Assembly: GCF_002571385.2 (NCBI RefSeq)
Contig: NW_019218189.1
Span: 62,001-119,456 of the forward strand
Direction: 5' to 3'
Source: Stylophora pistillata
Lineage: Eukaryota
Length of the DNA: 57,456 nucleotides
Shown here piece after piece: positions 37,201 through 48,218 of the stretch. The notes beneath the pieces were generated by a model. The model was not told the origin of the DNA. It ran no database searches and saw only the letters and a program-made list of their open reading frames with translations. Position numbers and translations under genes: made by a program. How positions within the stretch are numbered: the first letter of the stretch is position 1; the number at the start of each line of letters is the position of its first letter.

Positions 37201-40052
37201 TTACATCCCGTACTAACCAGCACAGAGAAGATGCAGGAGACAGGACCCATGGCCCAGTGTTTTTCCTCCCTATCCGAGAAGACTAGAGTGTCTAACCATT
37301 TGGAGATGTCATAACAAAGGCAGCTCATTCTCCTCAGTTATTTTAGGACCGCGACTGTTGGTCACCTCTGACGCTTGACCCCTCAACCTCCAGCAGGGCA
37401 GTGTGGCGCTCAACAACATGAGCTAACCAGGCAGCGGTGCTCCAAAAAAAGCTGATCTTTGGTCAACTTCTTATTTTTAAATGTATTTTGCAATTGAAAT
37501 AATTCTTTTTAATACTGATGTTAATTTTGTGTATTTCTTAAACCATATGCACAATGAAATAATTTGGATATATCAACAAAGTTGAAATGGTAAATTGGCC
37601 AGCATAACAATTACAAAAGCTTTCGTAATCGTTACGGTGGCCAATTTACCGTTTCAACTTTGTTGACATATCCAGATTATTTCGTTACCCCCACTGACGT
37701 AGCCCCAAACAGTTTCTTTAGAAACTATCAGCCTTTATATGCACAATGTATTCTTTTATTTTGTAAAGGAACTGGCCATAAATATGGGTAAAGGTGATGA
37801 AAATTTGGATCAAGATGTCATCTTAAAGTTTATTCAGGTAAACTACAGATTGTGCTTGTACAGAAATTGTTAATTATGGAGAATTGAAGTATATTAAACT
37901 GTCATTTGGATAAAGCCATGGATAAAATAACAGACATGTACGTGATCCAAGAATGCAGCAGATGACCCACAGCTGAGCATTTCATTGATGTTCTTGCCAC
38001 ATTTTGATGTCAACTCTGATCTATTACTAACAGTAACTGTACAGACCCATGGTGACATGGAATCTCTTTGTTAATGAGATATCTATTTGTTTTGTTTTCT
38101 TTTCAGTTTCTCCTTGGTTTGTGGGCTAAGGATTGCAAAACCAGATCTGACGATAGCAAAAGAAGCTTAGAGGTAGCACACTGCAGTAACACTCTTGTGT
38201 GTTTCTGTCTCAACAGCACTAAGATGCTGAGTATATTGACCAACTAATTTGTTGTGCAATCTTTATTTATTTTGTTGAATAGGCAAAATTGGCAGGTGCC
38301 ACTCAAAGACAAACAGAATCATATCTAAAGCCATTGTTGAGAAAACTTAAAAATAAGGTAAACAAAAAATAATGAAAAACTGCTTTTTTTTGGTAATAAT
38401 AGAATTTCAAAGTCATCAATAACAACAACCATAACTATCAAAGTGTGATAACCTTCATTTGAAAATATGACATAGATTTTCTCCATACTAGGAAGATTTT
38501 CATTTCATTTAAAAAGAAAGATGTTGTATCCATCAAATGTCATCAAAAAACCTCAGACACTTGCTCTCATTGATGTCTGATTTGTTTGTTGTTTCCCAAC
38601 AGAAAACACCTCAAGATATTCTTGGTGCATTGACAACCATCATTATGAATCTGTTAGACAGAGAGTATGTAAAGGTATGAAGTCAACTTAGATTTTCTAA
38701 CTTTAATTTTACTTCAATCTTTTATGAATTTTATTTATTGTTGATTTGATAAAAAAAATTTCATCTTGAGACTATGCTCTACCTCAGCCTTTTGACTCCT
38801 AAGAGTGATGAGCATCTAATTTCTTCTTACAATATCACCACTGAATCAAACAATAAGGTCAGGAGAATAAAGGAAATGATCACCAACTAAAGAGGCACTC
38901 AACTGTTAAACAAATTCTCCTTGTCAGCACCTTAGGAAATGTATAGAGAACAGTATGGAGAATATGCACACTGATGCTAGGGTACAAAGGATTAAAAGAA
39001 AGTTAGGAAACCTTTGAATGGGACTTCAAAGGGAAATCTTTAGTCGCTAAAGAAGGATACCTTAAAGGAAAACTTATTTTGACGAGCGTCACTGTCTGTT
39101 ATCCCCCAGGCCAATGATTCGTATCTTCAGATGGCAATAGGAAATGCACCTTGGCCTATTGGTGTAACAATGGTGGGAATTCATGCAAGAACAGGAAGAG
39201 AAAAAATCTTTGCTCAAAATGTGGCTCGTATCCTTTTTAGAAATTTTAATTACGGGTTTGATGTTTGCTGTTTTACAGATAAGTTTCCAATTAATTTTGA
39301 GGCTTAATTACAATGAACACACTTCTCTTAAACTTTTAACTCCCACGAGAGACCAAGACAGAATTTCTCCTTACAATATCAGTACAATATCACGCAGTCA
39401 ATTGATGGGAATAAACAACAACAACAACAGCAACAAATTTATTTAAGCTTAATAAGAAATTACAATGCTTGGGCCCGCAAGTAGCAAGGGCTATTTGAGG
39501 CAGGCATAAGAGAGGAAAATAAAAAAAAAAAGAAAAGAATTCTACAGAAAAAGAATATTTTTTTAAAGAAAAAATTAATGTCAACAAGGAGATTAAATGT
39601 TGATTCAATACTAAATTCTCTGAACTCACACCACAAGAATTGTGTAGCAGACAGTATGGAGAATTAATAACGAGATCTTGGAAATTAAAAGGATTCACAC
39701 TCACTCCCACCCAGACAATGCAGCTTATAAAACTTTCAGTTCTTGCTATGTTCCCTTAGCTTTTGTTTAATCAGATGTTCTTAATGATGAAACTCAAAGG
39801 AAGTACATTCAGGTAAAGAAAAAGATGAACAATGATGATCAAAAATAGTTATTTTAAAACAAATATGATGTGTTTTATAAAGTCGCACACATGCTGTGAA
39901 GTATTGCATAATTTTTTGACTGAAGGTTACAATATAAATGAAAAGTAACCAGTTTTGTTCTTTGTCAGGGACTGAAACGTCTGATGACATTTTGCCAAAA
40001 GAAGTTTCCAGCAGATCCATCAAAGTCTGTGGAATACAATGCTGTAAAGTAA
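31261..40052 (+). CDS. PRPF18: Pre-mRNA-splicing factor 18 (~348 aa, 15 exons)
   Basis: Exons 31261-31326, 32479-32547, 32648-32668, 33038-33139, 34108-34187, 35112-35145, 35460-35534, 36926-37003, 37769-37837, 38107-38172, 38283-38357, 38603-38674, 39110-39227, 39775-39812, 39969-40052. Hallmarks: [72 protein letters not shown]. Confidence 0.97.
32003..32225. mobile_element. Hairpin element (same family as 7628-7725)
   Basis: Palindrome cttattaaccgag...cttggttaataag. Confidence 0.7.
32804..32966. mobile_element. hAT5-like MITE (CAGGGCT termini, 5-bp TSD actta)
   Basis: cagggctcgacac / gtgtcgagccctg, flanked by actta on both sides. A homologous copy is at 45538-45713. Confidence 0.7.
33225..33440. 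mobile_element. Inverted Penelope-like termini with degenerate hammerheads (related copies at ~2490-2590, 34712-34825, 37557-37730)
   Basis: ctgacgaagggctaatgcttgcaacatcagc and its inverse. The best-preserved copy, at 34773-34807 (-), reads gct-CCGACGA-agggc taac gctc-GAAA-cg-TC-agc. Confidence 0.65.
35917..36353. mobile_element. Hairpin element (palindrome plus inverted pair ending TAATAA)
   Basis: Palindrome at 35920-36066; ttgttacatccattttgaaat (36068-36088) / atttcaaaatggatgtaataa (36333-36353). Confidence 0.7.
36586..36875 (+). mobile_element. Degenerate tRNA-derived SINE
   Basis: Head ggcacagtggcctgatggtaag and body ...gactagcatcccatccag...tcatgctatggaaactgggataa. Confidence 0.55.
38787..38996. 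mobile_element. piggyBac-like MITE family (ttaaccctttaactccc-type termini); relatives at ~5060, 36355, 39330, 41520, 43895, 45147, 53480
   Basis: Shared internal aatttctccttacaatatc...ggagaat motifs and TTAA|CCC-like ends. Confidence 0.6.
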
Positions 40053-40869: not shown

Positions 40870-43800
40870 CTATCTGTATGTAAACTTCAACTTTGCGGTG
40901 ACCATCATATGATCTGAAGGGAACATCTCTTCGACAATTCTTCCATTTACGGTTTCCAAGGTGTCTCTTAGTAAAGACATTGTGATAAAGTAAAGAGCAA
41001 TCATCAAACAAACAACAGCTATTCCCAGTGTTCTATTAGAGAACAAAAACAAAACCCTGGAGTGAACTCTTCTTTTCGTTGCGAAACATCTTTGTATCAG
41101 TATTTTTATGAGAATGTACAAGATAAATACCACAGCTGTGGAATAAAGCACAAAAAGTAATAAAAAATTGTTGAAGTGTTCAGCATCGCATTCGTAGCAG
41201 AAAGGCAACTCGCAGTTATTTTTATCTCCTCCTTTGACACAGACACCGCAGCGACATGATCCATGAGGGCCACAATCTTGATGACAAGTGTACTTGAAAT
41301 GTGGACCATTTGCAGTTTCTTTGGCCATGAGGAATACTTTCTTGAGCCTTTGCCATTTATTTTGCAAGCTGTACTTTTGTTGGTAAACTTTTCCATCTCC
41401 ATGAATCTCAGCAGACACAACTTGAAGTCCAGTTACAGAAACGAGTATTCTGTCTGGCCGACTAACGAGTCCAGGTTCTGGCTGCGAGAAAAAATAAACT
41501 TGTCATTAGTTAATGCTGTTAACCCTTTAACTCCCAGAAGTGATTGATCTGTAACTTCTCCCTATAATATCCATACATGATCCAGCAAACAAGTAACAAG
41601 AATACTCAAACTTATCAGGTAGAAGTTGTTATCTGATCTAACACCAAATTCTTGTAACAAAATAATTTACAAGGGAATGTGTAACAGCTGGAGGGAGAAT
41701 ATTAGGCAATTAGGGATTTGAAATGAGTGTTGAGACATCAGAACAACACAATACAGCTAATGTTCCATTAGAAAAAAATCAATAAACAAGAAAAATCAAT
41801 GAGAATTTGATGCAAATTCACTTGCAGTGGAAAGGGTACAAGACTAGGTGACATTGGTTAAAAGGAATGTGTTATGTTTCTGTTATTTTTTTTTATTTAA
41901 CCGCCTCCCGGTTAGCTCAATTGATAGAGCGCTGGACTGATGTGTGGGAGGTCGAGGGTTCAAGCCCTGGCCGGACCAACACTCAAGATCTTAAAATAAT
42001 TGAGAAGAATATGCTTCCTTTCTATAACATCAAGAAATGGTTTAGATATTCTAGTCTTCTCGGATAGGGGCGAATAAATGGAGGTCCTGTCTCCTGCAGG
42101 GTTGGGGTGGGAGACGTTAATTTCCCACGTACGAGATTACTGTGTGATGGTTGTCCTCCCCTGGGGTGGGATGGCTGGGTGTTGTCTTGAGATTATATGA
42201 GCCTCTGGCTCGGGCCCCACGCAAAGATATTAAACTTGATTACAGGAACACAGAAGCAGAGAAGCGCTAAGAAGCTAGCCAAATACTGTCAGCAATCTGC
42301 ATTTGCAGCCTGTTTTAAAAGTACAACTGAAAGAGGATGACCACTGACGTAACCAACACCACAGATGAAATTTAACCCTTTTGNNNNNNNNNNNNNNNNN
42401 NNNNNNNNNNNNNNNNNNNNNNNNNNNNNNNNNNNNNNNNNNNNNNNNNNNNNNNNNNNNNNNNNNNNNNNNNNNNNNNNNNNNNNNNNNNNNNNNNNNN
42501 NNNNNNNNNNNNNNNNNNNNNNNNNNNNNNNNNNNNNNNNNNNNNNNNNNNNNNNNNNNNNNNNNNNNNNNNNNNNNNNNNNNNNNNNNNNNNNNNNNNN
42601 NNNNNNNNNNNNNNNNNNNNNNNNNNNNNNNNNNNNNNNNNNNNNNNNNNNNNNNNNNNNNNNNNNNNNNNNNNNNNNNNNNNNNNNNNNNNNNNNNNNN
42701 NNNNNNNNNNNNNNNNNNNNNNNNNNNNNNNNNNNNNNNNNNNNNNNNNNNNNNNNNNNNNNNNNNNNNNNNNNNNNNNNNNNNNNNNNNNNNNNNNNNN
42801 NNNNNNNNNNNNNNNNNNNNNNNNNNNNNNNNNNNNNNNNNNNNNNNNNNNNNNNNNNNNNNNNNNNNNNNNNNNNNNNNNNNNNNNNNNNNNNNNNNNN
42901 NNNNNNNNNNNNNNNNNNNNNNNNNNNNNNNNNNNNNNNNNNNNNNNNNNNNNNNNNNNNNNNNNNNNNNNNNNNNNNNNNNNNNNNNNNNNNNNNNNNN
43001 TTAGTTAATGCTGTTAACCCTTTAACTCCCAGAAGTGATTGATCTGTAACTTCTCCCTATAATATCCATACATGATCCAGCAAACAAGTAACAAGAATAC
43101 TCAAACTTATCAGGTAGAAGTTGTTATCTGATCTAACACCAAATTCTTGTAACAAAATAATTTACAAGGGAATGTGTAACAGCTGTAGGGAGAATATTAG
43201 GCAATTAGGGATTTGAAATGAGTGTTGAGACATCAGAACAACACAATACAGCTAATGTTCCATTAGAAAAAAATCAATAAACAAGAAAAATCAATGAGAA
43301 TTTGATGCAAATTCACTTGCAGTGGAAAGGGTACAAGACTAGGTGACATTGGTTAAAAGGAATGTGTTATGTTTCTGTTATTTTTTTTTATTTAACCGCC
43401 TCCCGGTTAGCTCAATTGATAGAGCGCTGGACTGATGTGTGGGAGGTCGAGGGTTCAAGCCCTGGCCGGACCAACACTCAAGATCTTAAAATAATTGAGA
43501 AGAATATGCTTCCTTTCTATAACATCAAGAAATGGTTTAGATATTCTAGTCTTCTCGAATAGGGATGAATAAATGGAGGTCCCATCTCCTGCAGGGTTAG
43601 GGGTAGGAGACGTTAATTTTCCATGCACGAGATTACTGTGTGATGGTTTTCCTCCCCTGGAGTGAGATGGGTGGGTGTTGTCTTGCGATTATATGAGCCT
43701 CTGGCTCGGGCAATATGGGCAACCATGCCCCACGCAAAGACATTAAACTTGATTACAGGATTACAGGAACACAGAAGCAGAGAAGCGCTAAGAAGCTAGC

Positions 43801-46106
43801 CAAATACTGTCAGCAATCTGCATTTGCAGCCTGTTTTAAAAGTACAACTGAAAGAGGATGACCACTGACGTAACCAACACCACAGATGTTATTGAACCCT
43901 TTTGCCCCTCAGATCTCATTAGTAATTCTCCCTACTGGGTGTCATACAATTCTTATGAAGTTACTTTGAAGAATTTGGTATCTGATCAACTATTAATCCC
44001 CTGGGCCTGGTTGTTTGAAGGCTGATTAGCACTAACCCAGGATTAAAATTAAATCCAGGTTTCTCTATTTGTCTGTTCAATAGCCTTTTTAGGAAAATTT
44101 TCTCTATTCTTTTTAGAATATGCAATCATCAAATTGCAGACATAGAGATTCAAACTCAGCTTTCTTTTAAAGCTTTCAGATCTGCAATTTCATGCTAACC
44201 CTAGGTTACCTTAACCCGGCTTTGAAAAACCCGGCCCTGGTTGATATTTTCCTATATTCTCAGCACTTGTCCTCTTGATGTTGTATTGGCATTATGAGGA
44301 GAAATTCTGCCCTGGTCACTCATGGGGAGTGAAAGAGTAAACACACAAACAGTGGTAGACCATGTATACAAAGGTGTTGCAGGCAAACACTTTCACAACA
44401 CACCATATTGCTGAAGGTGTATCCCTTGCTGTTCCCATTTGCTGTCACCCAGGCATCTACAAAGCCATATCCTTGGTTTGATCCTTGTGGGTCAAAATAA
44501 CTGGATGCATGGCAAGGGCCTTCCTTGTCAAAAGACCCTTTCATTATTCCATTTACAGGCCAATGGAAATCATCGTATGCATTAAAGTCACCCAGTAAAA
44601 CAGAGCGCTCACTCCCCATGGATGCAATATAGTTAATGACATCCACTGCATTTTGGCACTGCTGAGTTTTGTCATAAGATAAGTGAAGCACTGTTATGTC
44701 CAGTTCTTCTCCATCAATATCAACTTGGACGTGAAGTACAGCTCGCTTGTTGCGATCCACACCACCTTTCCCAATTGTTAAGTTAACAACATGACTTAAT
44801 ATTATGGGATGTTTACTGAGCAGTCCCAGGCCTTCCTGTTCCCACCCTGGTGGGTCTTGTCGACCAGCTGGAGGTGTAACCATGGCAACAGGGTGATAAA
44901 CTAAATGTTTGTAGTGTGGAATTAACTCTTGAAGTTCAGTTAACTGGTTTCTGTCATCTTTTGCATCAGCACGCACTTCTTGGAAACCAATTACATCTGG
45001 GTTAACTTTATTTATCTGAAAAAATTAAAAGCAAGAAACTAACGGGCAATTTCAAATTTATTATAGCAGGGTCTCCACACAAAAGCTTGATTTTATTTGC
45101 AGTCCGAGTTGAATCACTACAAAACAGCACTAAAAGAATACACTTTAAATCTTTCACTCACAAGATCTCATTAGCAATTCTCCTTACTGTCTGCCATACA
45201 ATTGTTATGATGTCAGTTCAGAGAATTTGGTCTTGGATCAACTGATAATCCCCTAATTAATATTTGTCTATTTTCTCAACATTTGTGTACTTGATATTGT
45301 ATTGATTTTGTTAGAAGAAATTCTCTCTTGGTCACTCGTGGGAGTTAGAGAGTTAAATAAACTTGGGCTACCAGTCTGTACAAACATCATTCCGTTTTGT
45401 TTCCAGTTTGACCTTGACCTATCTTTCTATCAAACAAAAACCAGAAAAAAATGGACCACTGATGGAATGATACTTTGTCATGATGTGAAAACAAAACAAA
45501 GAAATAAAATCAACATGAATAAAATCAATATAAATATCAGGGCTCGACACTAACTTTTCAACTTATTAGCCAAGTGGCTAGTGACATCTTAGATGTTAGG
45601 ACAATTTCAGTTTGTTTACTAGCCAAACTGGCTAGTGGAAATCGAAAACCACCAGCCAAAACTGAATTTCTACAGGTCTGTGGCTAGTGAGCTACAGTTG
45701 GTGTTGAGCCCTGAATAAGCCGTTGGGTTGATGTCAACATGAAACAAATGAAAAAATTTCAATCCTTCCAAAACACATGAACACGGGTATCGTAAGGTGA
45801 ACCAGGCTTTACCACCTTTTTTCGTTTATACACTTCCAAACATTTTATAAACATTAAAAAAAAAAAAAAACCGGAGTCTCACGATCTTCAATTTAAGAAT
45901 CTCTTATATTTAAGAGTTGCAAAAATCTTTGTCAAACATAATAACGTTAAATTTTAAATATCAAATGTCGGTTCCTGTGGTAAATAATTTATTCCTGAAG
46001 TACAAAGATAAAAATAAAAAAAAAATTCTTTATTTTTGCTCTTCCTTGCATTGAATGAATCCGGAAAAATAGTATCCTAACTTGCCAAATAATTAACACT
46101 AAAAAA

Positions 46107-46150
<44 letters not shown>

Positions 46151-46406
46151 CCAAGAAACAAAACAGCGGGAAATACATAAATATTTGAAGGTTGAACATT
46201 CATAACAAGAAACGGACAAGAAATTATATGGAAAAAACGTGAAAAATTACCATATCCGCAATGTAGTATTTTCTTGTTTCCCACTGGAACATAACATTCC
46301 AAATGTTGTAGTTTGCAACTTTTACAATTTTATGTGCTGATACACGGCAGTAAATATTGAAATAAGCAGAGAAAAAGAGTAAAAATATACATGTTCGAAC
46401 CGCCAT
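40870..46406 (-). CDS. Signal-peptide EEP (endonuclease/exonuclease/phosphatase) family protein, ~459 aa, with a Cys-rich plus two-TM insertion
   Basis: Exons 46406-46251, 45015-44404 and 41481-40870, all phase 0. Motifs NYNIWN, PDVIGFQEV, VLHL, LLGDFN, YTF, RPDRILV and PSDH; hydrophobic N-terminus. Confidence 0.88.
41900..42070 (+). mobile_element. tRNA-derived SINE (duplicate at 43396-43565, start of another at 50607, minus copy ~37200-37437)
   Basis: tagctcaattgatagagcg A-box and ggttcaagccc B-box followed by a non-tRNA body. Confidence 0.7.
42384..43000. other. Assembly gap flanked by duplicated sequence
   Basis: N run; 41506-42383 is repeated at 43001-43903. Confidence 0.95.
46111..46146. 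repeat. (CA)n microsatellite in intron 1 of the EEP gene
   Basis: Tandem ca. Confidence 0.95.
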
Positions 46407-47315: not shown

Positions 47316-48155
47316 TCAATGCTTCCATCCTACTGCATGACCATCCTCCATTTGAGGCTCAAGAAATCCACGGAAGACTTTTCCATCATAACTCCATCTT
47401 GCGCCATATCCTTCAATACACCTCACTTCAATAACTTTAAGTCCATGTGGCAGACAGTGGATATTAATCCATGAAGCATCCTCTAGTATACGCATTACAA
47501 CTGTATTAGCATGTTCATTTTTAACTTGTTCGCTACCTGCACAGACACCCCACCATTCACTGGAGTCCCTGTGGCAATGTTTTGATAAGGCTCTTGCACC
47601 AACTGTCAAATTGGCATTTGGTCTGTGTTTCTTATTAAAGGATTCTATAAGAACTTCCACAGGAGAAGGAAAAATATCAACACTGCCTTGCGTGCGACGA
47701 ATATTAAGCAGATCAAGCAGTCCTCTCACGCCGAGAAATTTTAAGATAGATGAAAACTGTTGACACTTTTCTTTATCAGATATTTCTGTCCAAGAATCAT
47801 TAAGGGAGGACAATAAAAGCCAAATTTTTTCAGAAATTTCTTTTCTCTCTTCAGTGAAGTCTTCCTCTGATAGAGATCCACAAGATTGGCTTTTTGCAGG
47901 AAAATTCCCAGTAGTCATCCACTGGTATAACTTTTTAGAAATTTCCAAATAAAGTGGATATCTAGGATACTTTCCTTCTTTTGCTGGTAAGGTACGGAAA
48001 GTCTCTTCGGAAAGTAACAAAGTTTCGCACTGCCCTTTGGACATTATTCCAGCTTCCTGAACAATCCACGTTTCTAAGACTTTCTTAACGACCGTAGCTA
48101 TACCATGGACAGAAACCATCTTTCGGATTGAGAGACACATTATACTCATGTACAC
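47316..48155 (-). CDS. Intronless protein resembling plant 'ASCH-domain' proteins but lacking ASCH; C-terminal polymorphic-toxin-like domain (likely start 48119)
   Basis: 279-aa ORF. C-terminal LTVGARALSKHCHR..WWG...KN...WINIH...EVR...YGARW..DG..FRGFLEP..EDGH..GWKH. aagATGg context at 48119. Confidence 0.75.
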   Translation of the reverse strand: MYMSIMCLSIRKMVSVHGIATVVKKVLETWIVQEAGIMSKGQCETLLLSEETFRTLPAKEGKYPRYPLYLEISKKLYQWMTTGNFPAKSQSCGSLSEEDFTEERKEISEKIWLLLSSLNDSWTEISDKEKCQQFSSILKFLGVRGLLDLLNIRRTQGSVDIFPSPVEVLIESFNKKHRPNANLTVGARALSKHCHRDSSEWWGVCAGSEQVKNEHANTVVMRILEDASWINIHCLPHGLKVIEVRCIEGYGARWSYDGKVFRGFLEPQMEDGHAVGWKH

Positions 48156-48218
48156 TATGGAGAAAATGGAAAATTCCTCCCCAGGCTCTCACGGAGTTAA
48201 TATTCTGTTAGTTTCAAG

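What the first reader, a model, noticed from the sequence alone, without database searches (positions are those of the whole stretch)
40870..41481. EEP enzyme whose final catalytic SDH motif lies beyond a Cys-rich module and two TM helices
Established: in EEP folds (DNase I, APE1, neutral sphingomyelinase, inositol 5-phosphatase) the D-x-I strand is followed within a few dozen residues by SDH. Seen: ~170 residues separate RPDRILV from PSDHMMVTAKL here. They contain CHQDCGPHGSCRCGVC...CELPFCYEC, TM1 (FLLLFVLYSTAVVFILYILIKILI), a basic loop (KRRVHSR) and TM2 (LGIAVVCLMIALYFITM). With the signal peptide, the hairpin would return SDH to the extracellular side. Inference: an ecto-enzyme anchored by a membrane hairpin inserted inside its active-site fold, which could couple membrane state to nuclease or lipid-phosphodiesterase activity.
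Basis: partly seen in the sequence, partly recalled or inferred. Interest (0 to 1): 0.7.

Follow-up and report, generated by a model that had tools for sequence, protein, structure and literature searches.

The report
Enzyme with membrane anchor inside fold
This coral gene encodes a member of an unnamed, ancient family of DNase I-like enzymes in which two membrane-spanning segments sit inside the catalytic fold, likely holding the enzyme on the outer or lumenal face of a membrane where it would cut the phosphate head groups of lipids; no substrate has been tested.

Summary
The gene has three exons (459 aa); RNA contigs keep the insert in 8 of 8 runs laid. All six EEP catalytic motifs are intact, but motif v Asp266 and motif vi His447 are 181 residues apart, against 23-31 in 8 other EEPs of this genome. 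The insert (helix, 8-Cys module, two TM helices, helix) is a family trait: 76 of 85 parsable relatives have it, in cnidarians, Trichoplax, molluscs, annelids, a brachiopod, echinoderms, hemichordates and choanoflagellates. An AlphaFold model (pLDDT 88) aligns to whole EEP chains including their last strand, so SDH returns to the fold. Loops between the TMs are basic in 78 of 78, and most leaders are hydrophobic: the catalytic domain likely faces outside or the lumen. The insert lies in the beta11-beta12 loop, where bacterial sphingomyelinases carry their membrane-docking hairpin. Best reading: a membrane-tethered lipid head-group phosphodiesterase; substrate untested.

The parts
46251..46406 (-). 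Exon 1: start codon, hydrophobic leader (about residues 1-24, likely signal peptide), motif i N34-x-W36-N37
   Evidence: intron joint 45015/46251 in RNA contigs; coordinates
44404..45015 (-). Exon 2: EEP core with motifs ii (E65), iii (H163), iv (D195-x-N197), D139-x-N-x-R143 loop, invariant C172 and C220 (likely a disulfide), sequon N130
   Evidence: PF03372 44 bits, cut-off 24.5; conservation; RNA
40870..41481 (-). Exon 3 (the finding): motif v, insert, motif vi, last strand, stop
41440..41460 (-). RPDRILV, motif v (Asp266) leading into strand beta10
   Evidence: D in 50 of 50 aligned members
41308..41394 (-). Insert helix A (residues 286-314), basic and aromatic, with invariant Arg301 and near-invariant Tyr289
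   Evidence: model; R 50 of 50, Y 48 of 50
41188..41286 (-). 8-Cys module (C322-C354) with a small beta hairpin; likely disulfide-bonded
   Evidence: first five Cys 50 of 50, last three 48-49 of 50; model
41095..41166 (-). TM1 (about residues 362-385)
   Evidence: hydropathy; helix in models
41035..41094 (-). Basic loop, likely cytosolic; Cys388 at its start is common in the family (possible palmitoylation site, inferred)
40975..41028 (-). TM2 (about residues 408-425)
   Evidence: hydropathy; models
40918..40974 (-). Amphipathic return helix B and the conserved E440-E441
   Evidence: hydrophobic moment above shuffle in 47 of 47; E 49 of 50 and 48 of 50
40873..40917 (-). S445-D446-H447 (motif vi) and last strand beta12
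   Evidence: D and H 50 of 50; strand aligned to the last strand of solved EEPs

Best explanation
The gene encodes an intact EEP-fold enzyme carrying two membrane-spanning segments between its last two catalytic motifs, and it likely works as a metal-dependent phosphodiesterase tethered to the outer or lumenal face of a membrane, where it would cut the phosphate or phosphonate head group off a lipid or glycolipid, as a phospholipase C or sphingomyelinase does. Steps: (1) shown: the transcript keeps the insert and all six catalytic motifs are conserved; (2) predicted: the leader sends the core into the ER lumen, TM1 stops transfer, the basic loop stays in the cytosol and TM2 returns the last 30 residues to the lumen; (3) predicted: Asp446-His447 and strand beta12 complete the sandwich, with helix A and helix B as a stalk, possibly clamped by the invariant Arg301 and Glu440/Glu441 (inferred from conservation only); (4) inferred: because the beta11-beta12 loop leaves the fold right beside the catalytic His, the hairpin holds the active-site edge at the bilayer, replacing the aromatic docking hairpin that bacterial sphingomyelinases have in the same loop; (5) inferred: the substrate is a membrane lipid head group.
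For: Six EEP motifs as defined in PMC12988330 (section read) are conserved over alignment A2: Asn 37 of 40, Glu 47 of 48, His 48 of 49, Asp 50 of 50 and Asn 47 of 50, Asp 50 of 50, Asp-His 50 of 50. Model of the 85%-identical relative P0003: pLDDT 88.3, pTM 0.86; it aligns over model residues 25-460 to entire EEP chains (e.g. TDP2 4fpv Z 23.3, 231 of 250 residues, rmsd 2.4; SMPD2 8j2f Z 23.9, 244 residues). Topology: inter-TM loop has more K+R than D+E in 78 of 78 two-TM members (rows include close relatives); a hydrophobic leader in 37 of 45 members with an N-terminus; ten conserved Cys on the catalytic side; one sequon column shared by 17 of 50; one unnamed relative (P0132) has a WCGHC thioredoxin domain in frame inside the core. 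Same loop: W284/F285 membrane hairpin lies just before H296 in Bc-SMase (PMC9710629 passages), and PMC12988330 names the beta11-beta12 loop as the bacterial SMase membrane-insertion loop. Spacing from the loop base to motif iii matches nSMase1: R143 to H163 is 20 residues, as K116 to H136. A core-only tree groups cnidarians (98/96) and lophotrochozoans (95/92) as expected for vertical descent; one copy of exon 3 in this genome.
Against: No activity or localisation data. Structure neighbours are tied across unrelated substrates (Z 22.5-25.3: unknown bacterial EEPs, SMPD2, CNOT6L, TDP2, nocturnin, PDE12), and the best sequence matches are uncharacterised bacterial EEPs 3teb, 4ruw, 3g6s, ahead of sphingomyelinases. 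nSMase marks are not kept: Arg instead of the D-K loop Lys with a shorter spacing, Arg instead of the W51 equivalent; TIGR03395 matched 1 of 50 at E 0.002. Helix A is not clearly amphipathic (17 of 50 above shuffle for its first part). Some protist members have no TM hairpin (4 of 85 parsed lack it, two of them probably gene-model errors), so the hairpin is not essential everywhere. I had no model coordinates, so the distance of His447 to the other catalytic residues and the tilt to the membrane were not measured.
Confidence: 0.5

Rival explanations
1. Same topology, but an ER/Golgi enzyme that removes or exchanges phosphodiester substituents (phosphoethanolamine, phosphocholine, aminoethylphosphonate, sugar phosphate) on glycans or GPI anchors, like GlcNAc-PDase or the EEP domain of Cwh43/PGAP2IP.
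For: 8 of 50 members match PF23226 (PGAP2IP EEP domain) at E up to 0.1, best 3.3e-06; mannosyl-6-phosphatase 4c1r is among the sequence hits; several protist members have a type II-like N-terminal anchor and stem (P0117, P0126, P0127); such modifications are common on invertebrate glycoconjugates (PMC6994554 passages); GlcNAc-PDase is a secreted EEP grouping with Cwh43/PGAP2IP (PMC10704324 sections 5, 7, 8).
Against: P0003 scores 13.5 bits on PF23226, cut-off 27. No named insect or nematode hit among 35 organism-named rows of 120, although these animals carry PC/PE glycans.
Confidence: 0.22
2. A cell-surface nuclease or nucleotide phosphodiesterase that scavenges phosphate from extracellular DNA, RNA or nucleotides.
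For: Many EEPs are nucleases; weak matches to MnuA (25 of 50 members) and ExeM/NucH (12 of 50) models; TDP2, CNOT6L, nocturnin and PDE12 are among the tied fold neighbours.
Against: All these matches are far under cut-off (P0003: 20.9 of 185 bits, 15 of 300). DNase I-type chains rank lower (DNase1L3 Z 18.6). A bulky Cys module and stalk next to the catalytic His, and a rigid tether to the bilayer, fit a polymer substrate poorly (inference).
Confidence: 0.13
3. One reading: the hairpin is a sensor, and bilayer thickness, tension or a cytosolic signal moves His447 in or out of the active site.
For: His447 lies only about 20 residues after TM2; helix B and the EE-x-x-P-S-D-H segment are conserved; in bilaterians the cytosolic loop is Cys- and Arg-rich.
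Against: No conserved TM column; loop length 5-254 residues; TM-less natural members exist; the last strand is a core strand of the sandwich in the model.
Confidence: 0.1
4. Inverse topology: catalytic domain in the cytosol, Cys module binding zinc, enzyme acting on cytosolic-leaflet lipids such as phosphoinositides.
For: CxxC-like spacings occur in the module; 8 of 45 leaders fall under the hydrophobicity mark.
Against: Basic loop in 78 of 78; hydrophobic leader in 37 of 45; inositol 5-phosphatases are the weakest EEP fold matches (Z 13.8-15.5).
Confidence: 0.05

Closest known systems
Neutral sphingomyelinase 1 / Isc1 (human SMPD2, PDB 8j2f)
   Same: EEP core plus a two-helix membrane hairpin; fold match Z 23.9 over 244 residues; Asp...basic-residue loop 20 residues before motif iii His.
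   Different: In SMPD2 the hairpin is C-terminal to the catalytic H272 (structural match ends at chain residue 284, PMC10682184 passages); here it is before His. No Cys module is described there; here a leader points to a lumenal or outer catalytic domain; Lys of the D-K loop and W51 are Arg here.
Bacterial sphingomyelinase C (Bc-SMase, SmcL)
   Same: Secreted EEP whose membrane-binding element sits in the loop just before the last Asp-His.
   Different: There a short aromatic beta-hairpin docks on the surface; here about 155 residues with two membrane-crossing helices. Sequence match weak (E about 2e-4 with a profile).
EEPD1
   Same: Uses an extended beta11-beta12 loop for a special purpose (dimer contact; PMC12988330); fold match Z 18.9.
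   Different: EEPD1 has lost motif iv Asn and has HhH domains; this family keeps Asp-x-Asn and has TMs in the loop.
GlcNAc-PDase and Cwh43/PGAP2IP group
   Same: Secretory-side EEP enzymes acting on, or tied to, head-group phosphodiesters (PMC10704324); weak PF23226 matches.
   Different: GlcNAc-PDase has no TM; Cwh43/PGAP2IP has its TMs N-terminal to the EEP domain (recalled).
Uncharacterised bacterial EEPs 3teb, 4ruw, 3g6s, 3mpr
   Same: Best sequence-profile (E 1.7e-13 to 5.6e-05) and fold matches (Z 22.5-25.3).
   Different: No insert; no substrate given in the entries' titles.

Membership tests
EEP (DNase I-like) superfamily | Six catalytic motifs WN, QE, H, DxN, D, DH | tested here: met
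   definition from PMC12988330
EEP (DNase I-like) superfamily | PF03372 over cut-off and four-layer sandwich including the last strand | tested here: met
   PF03372 44 bits for exon 2, matched by 50 of 50 members at E up to 0.1; Z up to 25.3 over model residues 25-460
EEP (DNase I-like) superfamily | Metal-dependent phospho(di)ester hydrolysis | not testable with these tools
   needs an assay
Neutral sphingomyelinase 1 / Isc1 | TM hairpin C-terminal to the catalytic His | tested here: not met
   hairpin precedes His447; SMPD2 arrangement
Neutral sphingomyelinase 1 / Isc1 | D-K loop (D111-x4-K116) and W51 | tested here: not met
   family has D-x3-R (D 49, R 49 of 50) and QEVR (R 46 of 48); equivalence inferred from spacing to motifs ii and iii, not from a residue-level superposition
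Bacterial sphingomyelinase C | Aromatic beta-hairpin before the last His; TIGR03395 | tested here: not met
   loop holds a helical/TM insert; 1 of 50 members at E 0.002
Cwh43/PGAP2IP and GlcNAc-PDase group | PF23226 over cut-off | tested here: inconclusive
   P0003 13.5 bits of 27; 8 of 50 members match, best E 3.3e-06, bit scores of those not shown; no tree with characterised members could be built
Extracellular nucleases MnuA, ExeM/NucH, ExoIII | NCBIfam model over cut-off | tested here: not met
   P0003 20.9/185, 15/300, 15.4/99 bits
Integrin-type EGF module (for the Cys module) | C-x3-G-x-C-x-C-G-x-C-x-C pattern (recalled) and PF23105 | tested here: inconclusive
   pattern met except the last Cys; only P0072 touches PF23105, E 0.34, 11.4 of 27 bits; the window's module matches nothing

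The most novel reading that the evidence does not exclude
The family is the lumenal or cell-surface enzyme that turns over (or, Cwh43-like, exchanges) the head group of ceramide aminoethylphosphonate and related phosphono-glycolipids, the major sphingolipids of corals and molluscs; it would be an EEP enzyme built with a membrane hairpin threaded through its catalytic fold, kept from choanoflagellates to hemichordates and lost in vertebrates and arthropods that use sphingomyelin or CPE instead.
Probability: 0.12. Interest if true: 0.78.

Novelty: new variant of a known kind. Interest (0 to 1): 0.52.

Why it matters
It defines an ancient, apparently single-copy enzyme family whose named records are all 'uncharacterized' or generic EEP, with a topology not seen among the solved EEP chains listed here: the last catalytic Asp-His is made after the chain has crossed the membrane twice. 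It shows the beta11-beta12 loop as a reusable membrane-attachment site (surface hairpin in bacterial sphingomyelinases, dimer loop in EEPD1, full TM hairpin here). It also explains why annotation misses it: Pfam coverage stops before the insert, and gene predictors splice the insert out (P0141, probably P0043 and P0037). If its substrate is CAEP or another invertebrate phosphono- or zwitterionic lipid, it gives a direct handle on the turnover of a main membrane lipid of corals and molluscs, testable in Nematostella and Salpingoeca.

Tried and rejected
Insert spliced out: rejected; 8 of 8 runs keep it. A cryptic acceptor at 41034 matches the junction of a database model that drops part of the insert (P0141), so such models look like predictor errors; the TM-less Nematostella and Elysia crispata models nest among TM-bearing relatives and are read the same way, untested by RNA. 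Contigs drop rare isoforms, so a minor soluble isoform is not excluded. Fold of the insert alone (model pLDDT 90): only generic helical-hairpin matches over residues 70-154, best Z 9.0; nothing listed for the Cys module; no Pfam, PDB-sequence or Atlas hit; this does not show a new fold. Homodimer prediction: no verdict, score 0.00, alignment not used. Net charge of the core does not separate this family from 13 other EEP frames of the genome (median +1 in both): uninformative on DNA versus lipid. Amphipathic helix A: not supported. Prokaryotic or viral relatives: none confirmed among 42 and 44 pattern matches; pattern-limited. Placing the family against outgroups: deep branches unresolved and long branches meet. 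A link of 3teb to a sugar-phosphate phosphatase (recalled) found no paper. Bc-SMase motif v numbering could not be confirmed in papers. CAEP idea: this genome has a PF13714 (PEP mutase family) locus and Acropora has the AEP pathway (PMC3640398 passages), CAEP is reported in cnidarians and molluscs and not in five crabs (PMC8708635 passages), but I found no statement of CAEP in echinoderms, hemichordates or choanoflagellates, so co-occurrence is partial. Searches for a description of the family in print found none (listings only); subscription journals are not covered. Earlier scan notes: none.

Full report
Gene and observation. The finding is the last exon of a three-exon gene on the minus strand: 46406-46251, 45015-44404, 41481-40870, 459 codons, GT-AG introns. 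Exon 3 is 85% identical to a cluster that holds Pocillopora proteins, so the window is from a stony coral. RNA contigs skip intron 2 at 41481/44404 in 4 of 4 runs and intron 1 at 45015/46251 in 3 of 4, and one contig covers all three exons; four more runs each give one unbroken contig across the insert with no internal joint. Motif v Asp266 and motif vi His447 are 181 residues apart. Controls: 23-31 in 8 of 20 other EEP loci of the same genome that could be parsed, 44 in the insert-less relative P0074, 34 in human SMPD2 (PMC10682184, passages). Exon 3 has one match in the genome.

Family. Three word-index searches and one full HMMER search returned 28, 73, 120 and 82 proteins. In one search, 35 of 120 rows carry an organism name: all are cnidarians, molluscs (marine, freshwater and land), an annelid, echinoderms or hemichordates. 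Look-ups add a jellyfish, Trichoplax, Capitella, Lingula and two choanoflagellates, and an MMETSP protist without a species name. No named vertebrate, arthropod, nematode, fungus or plant appeared; most rows are unnamed, so loss is suggested, not shown. No prokaryotic or viral relative was confirmed. Of the 137 ids P0003-P0139, 85 had both flanking motifs by my patterns: 76 have the Cys module and two hydrophobic segments, 3 have a second segment just under the mark, 4 have no TM, 2 have TMs without Cys module (one row's insert length was mis-parsed, P0074/P0075 were not picked up). A tree of catalytic cores (39 rows, insert left out) groups cnidarians and lophotrochozoans with support and leaves the protists unresolved. 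The two animal records without TMs nest among TM-bearing ones; a Pocillopora model drops part of the insert at a cryptic acceptor that RNA does not use. A transcript-derived protist member (P0072/P0210) and a metagenome protein (P0127) lack TMs and may be real soluble or N-anchored variants.

Fold. The model of P0003 (50-row alignment) has pLDDT 88.3, pTM 0.86; strands 267-272 and 276-284 are followed by helix 287-314, the Cys module, helices 357-390, 406-427, 429-443 and a last strand 450-457. Structural alignment to 38 EEP chains spans model residues about 25 to 460 and runs to the end of their catalytic domains, 192-261 residues at rmsd 2.4-4.6. So the last strand, and the Asp-His before it, are placed back in the sandwich. 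I had no coordinates, so active-site distances were not measured. With the strand numbering of PMC12988330 (motif v before beta10, motif vi before beta12; section read) the insert is in the beta11-beta12 loop. That paper says bacterial sphingomyelinases have an outreaching loop there for membrane insertion and EEPD1 uses it to dimerise (passage; its supplementary figure S12 was not seen and may show other long loops); PMC9710629 places the W284/F285 hairpin just before H296 (passages). Human SMPD2 also has a TM hairpin, but after the catalytic His.

Catalysis and conservation (P0003 numbers are window numbers plus one). All six motifs are near invariant. Family marks: TFSNMPxPG before RPDR, D-x-N-x-R, Cys173 and Cys221, Tyr290, Arg302 (50 of 50), Glu441-Glu442. 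Mean column conservation: Cys module 0.67, end segment 0.64, N-core 0.53, TM1 0.30, TM2 0.31. The hairpin is kept as hydrophobicity, not as sequence, which fits an anchor. The Cys module folds with confidence alone but matched nothing listed; its spacing recalls the integrin EGF motif (recalled), with one sub-threshold Pfam touch.

Topology. The loop between the TMs is net basic in 78 of 78 members, while the outer flanks are neutral or acidic in 66 of 78 (relatives are not independent). 37 of 45 members with an N-terminus have a hydrophobic leader; in some protists it looks like a type II anchor with a stem. Ten conserved Cys and a shared sequon column (17 of 50) lie on the catalytic side. 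The catalytic domain is therefore predicted to be lumenal or extracellular. Surface versus Golgi/ER is open.

Substrate. Not determined. Fold neighbours with different substrates are tied; the best sequence neighbours are uncharacterised bacterial EEPs. nSMase-specific residues are not kept, so this is not an nSMase family member, though it likely works like one: a bilayer anchor grafted next to the catalytic His in the loop that other EEPs use for lipid docking. Glycan/GPI head-group editing is the main rival, ecto-nuclease next. The range of the family overlaps that of the phosphonolipid CAEP (cnidarians, molluscs; not five crabs), which gives the bold case, but the overlap is partial and no paper on CAEP hydrolysis was found in one listing.

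Context. Neighbours are Prp18 and THOC7 exons on the plus strand and an intron-less-looking 290-aa ORF upstream; nothing there points to function.

Verdict. Real, expressed, conserved; a new architectural variant of a well-known enzyme superfamily. Three paper searches found no description (open-access library only, listings only). Anchoring inside the fold: about 0.85. Lipid head-group phosphodiesterase: about 0.5. Sensor role: about 0.1. Interest 0.52.

Noticed in passing
window 47316-48188 (-): A 290-aa open frame just upstream of the EEP gene, no Pfam family; its last 90 residues match PDB 6d7y_A (E 7.8e-05), an entry I recall as a bacterial contact-dependent inhibition RNase domain. A coral gene with such a domain may deserve its own look.
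   Followed up: partly
window 41506-42383 and 43001-43904: A 904-base near-duplicate (95%) on both sides of an N gap inside intron 2: probably two haplotypes placed in tandem by the assembly; the true intron may be shorter.
   Followed up: no
window 39083-39307 (+) and 48335-48861 (+): Exons of Prp18 (PF02840) and THOC7 (PF05615) flank the locus on the opposite strand.
   Followed up: partly
protein P0132 (unnamed transcript record): A family member with a WCGHC thioredoxin-like domain in frame inside the catalytic core, between motif iv and TFSNM; may be a real fusion or a chimeric contig.
   Followed up: no
proteins P0071, P0073, P0072/P0210, P0127: Modular variants of the insert: TM hairpin without Cys module, and Cys module without TMs; all keep helix A and E-E/D-x-x-P-S-D-H.
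   Followed up: partly
proteins P0074, P0075: Sister proteins with a type II-like anchor and long stem, the same RPDR motif and both core Cys, but no insert: a possible insert-less outgroup.
   Followed up: partly
window 41034 (-): Cryptic splice acceptor inside the insert, used by a database gene model (P0141) but not by any RNA contig laid.
   Followed up: yes
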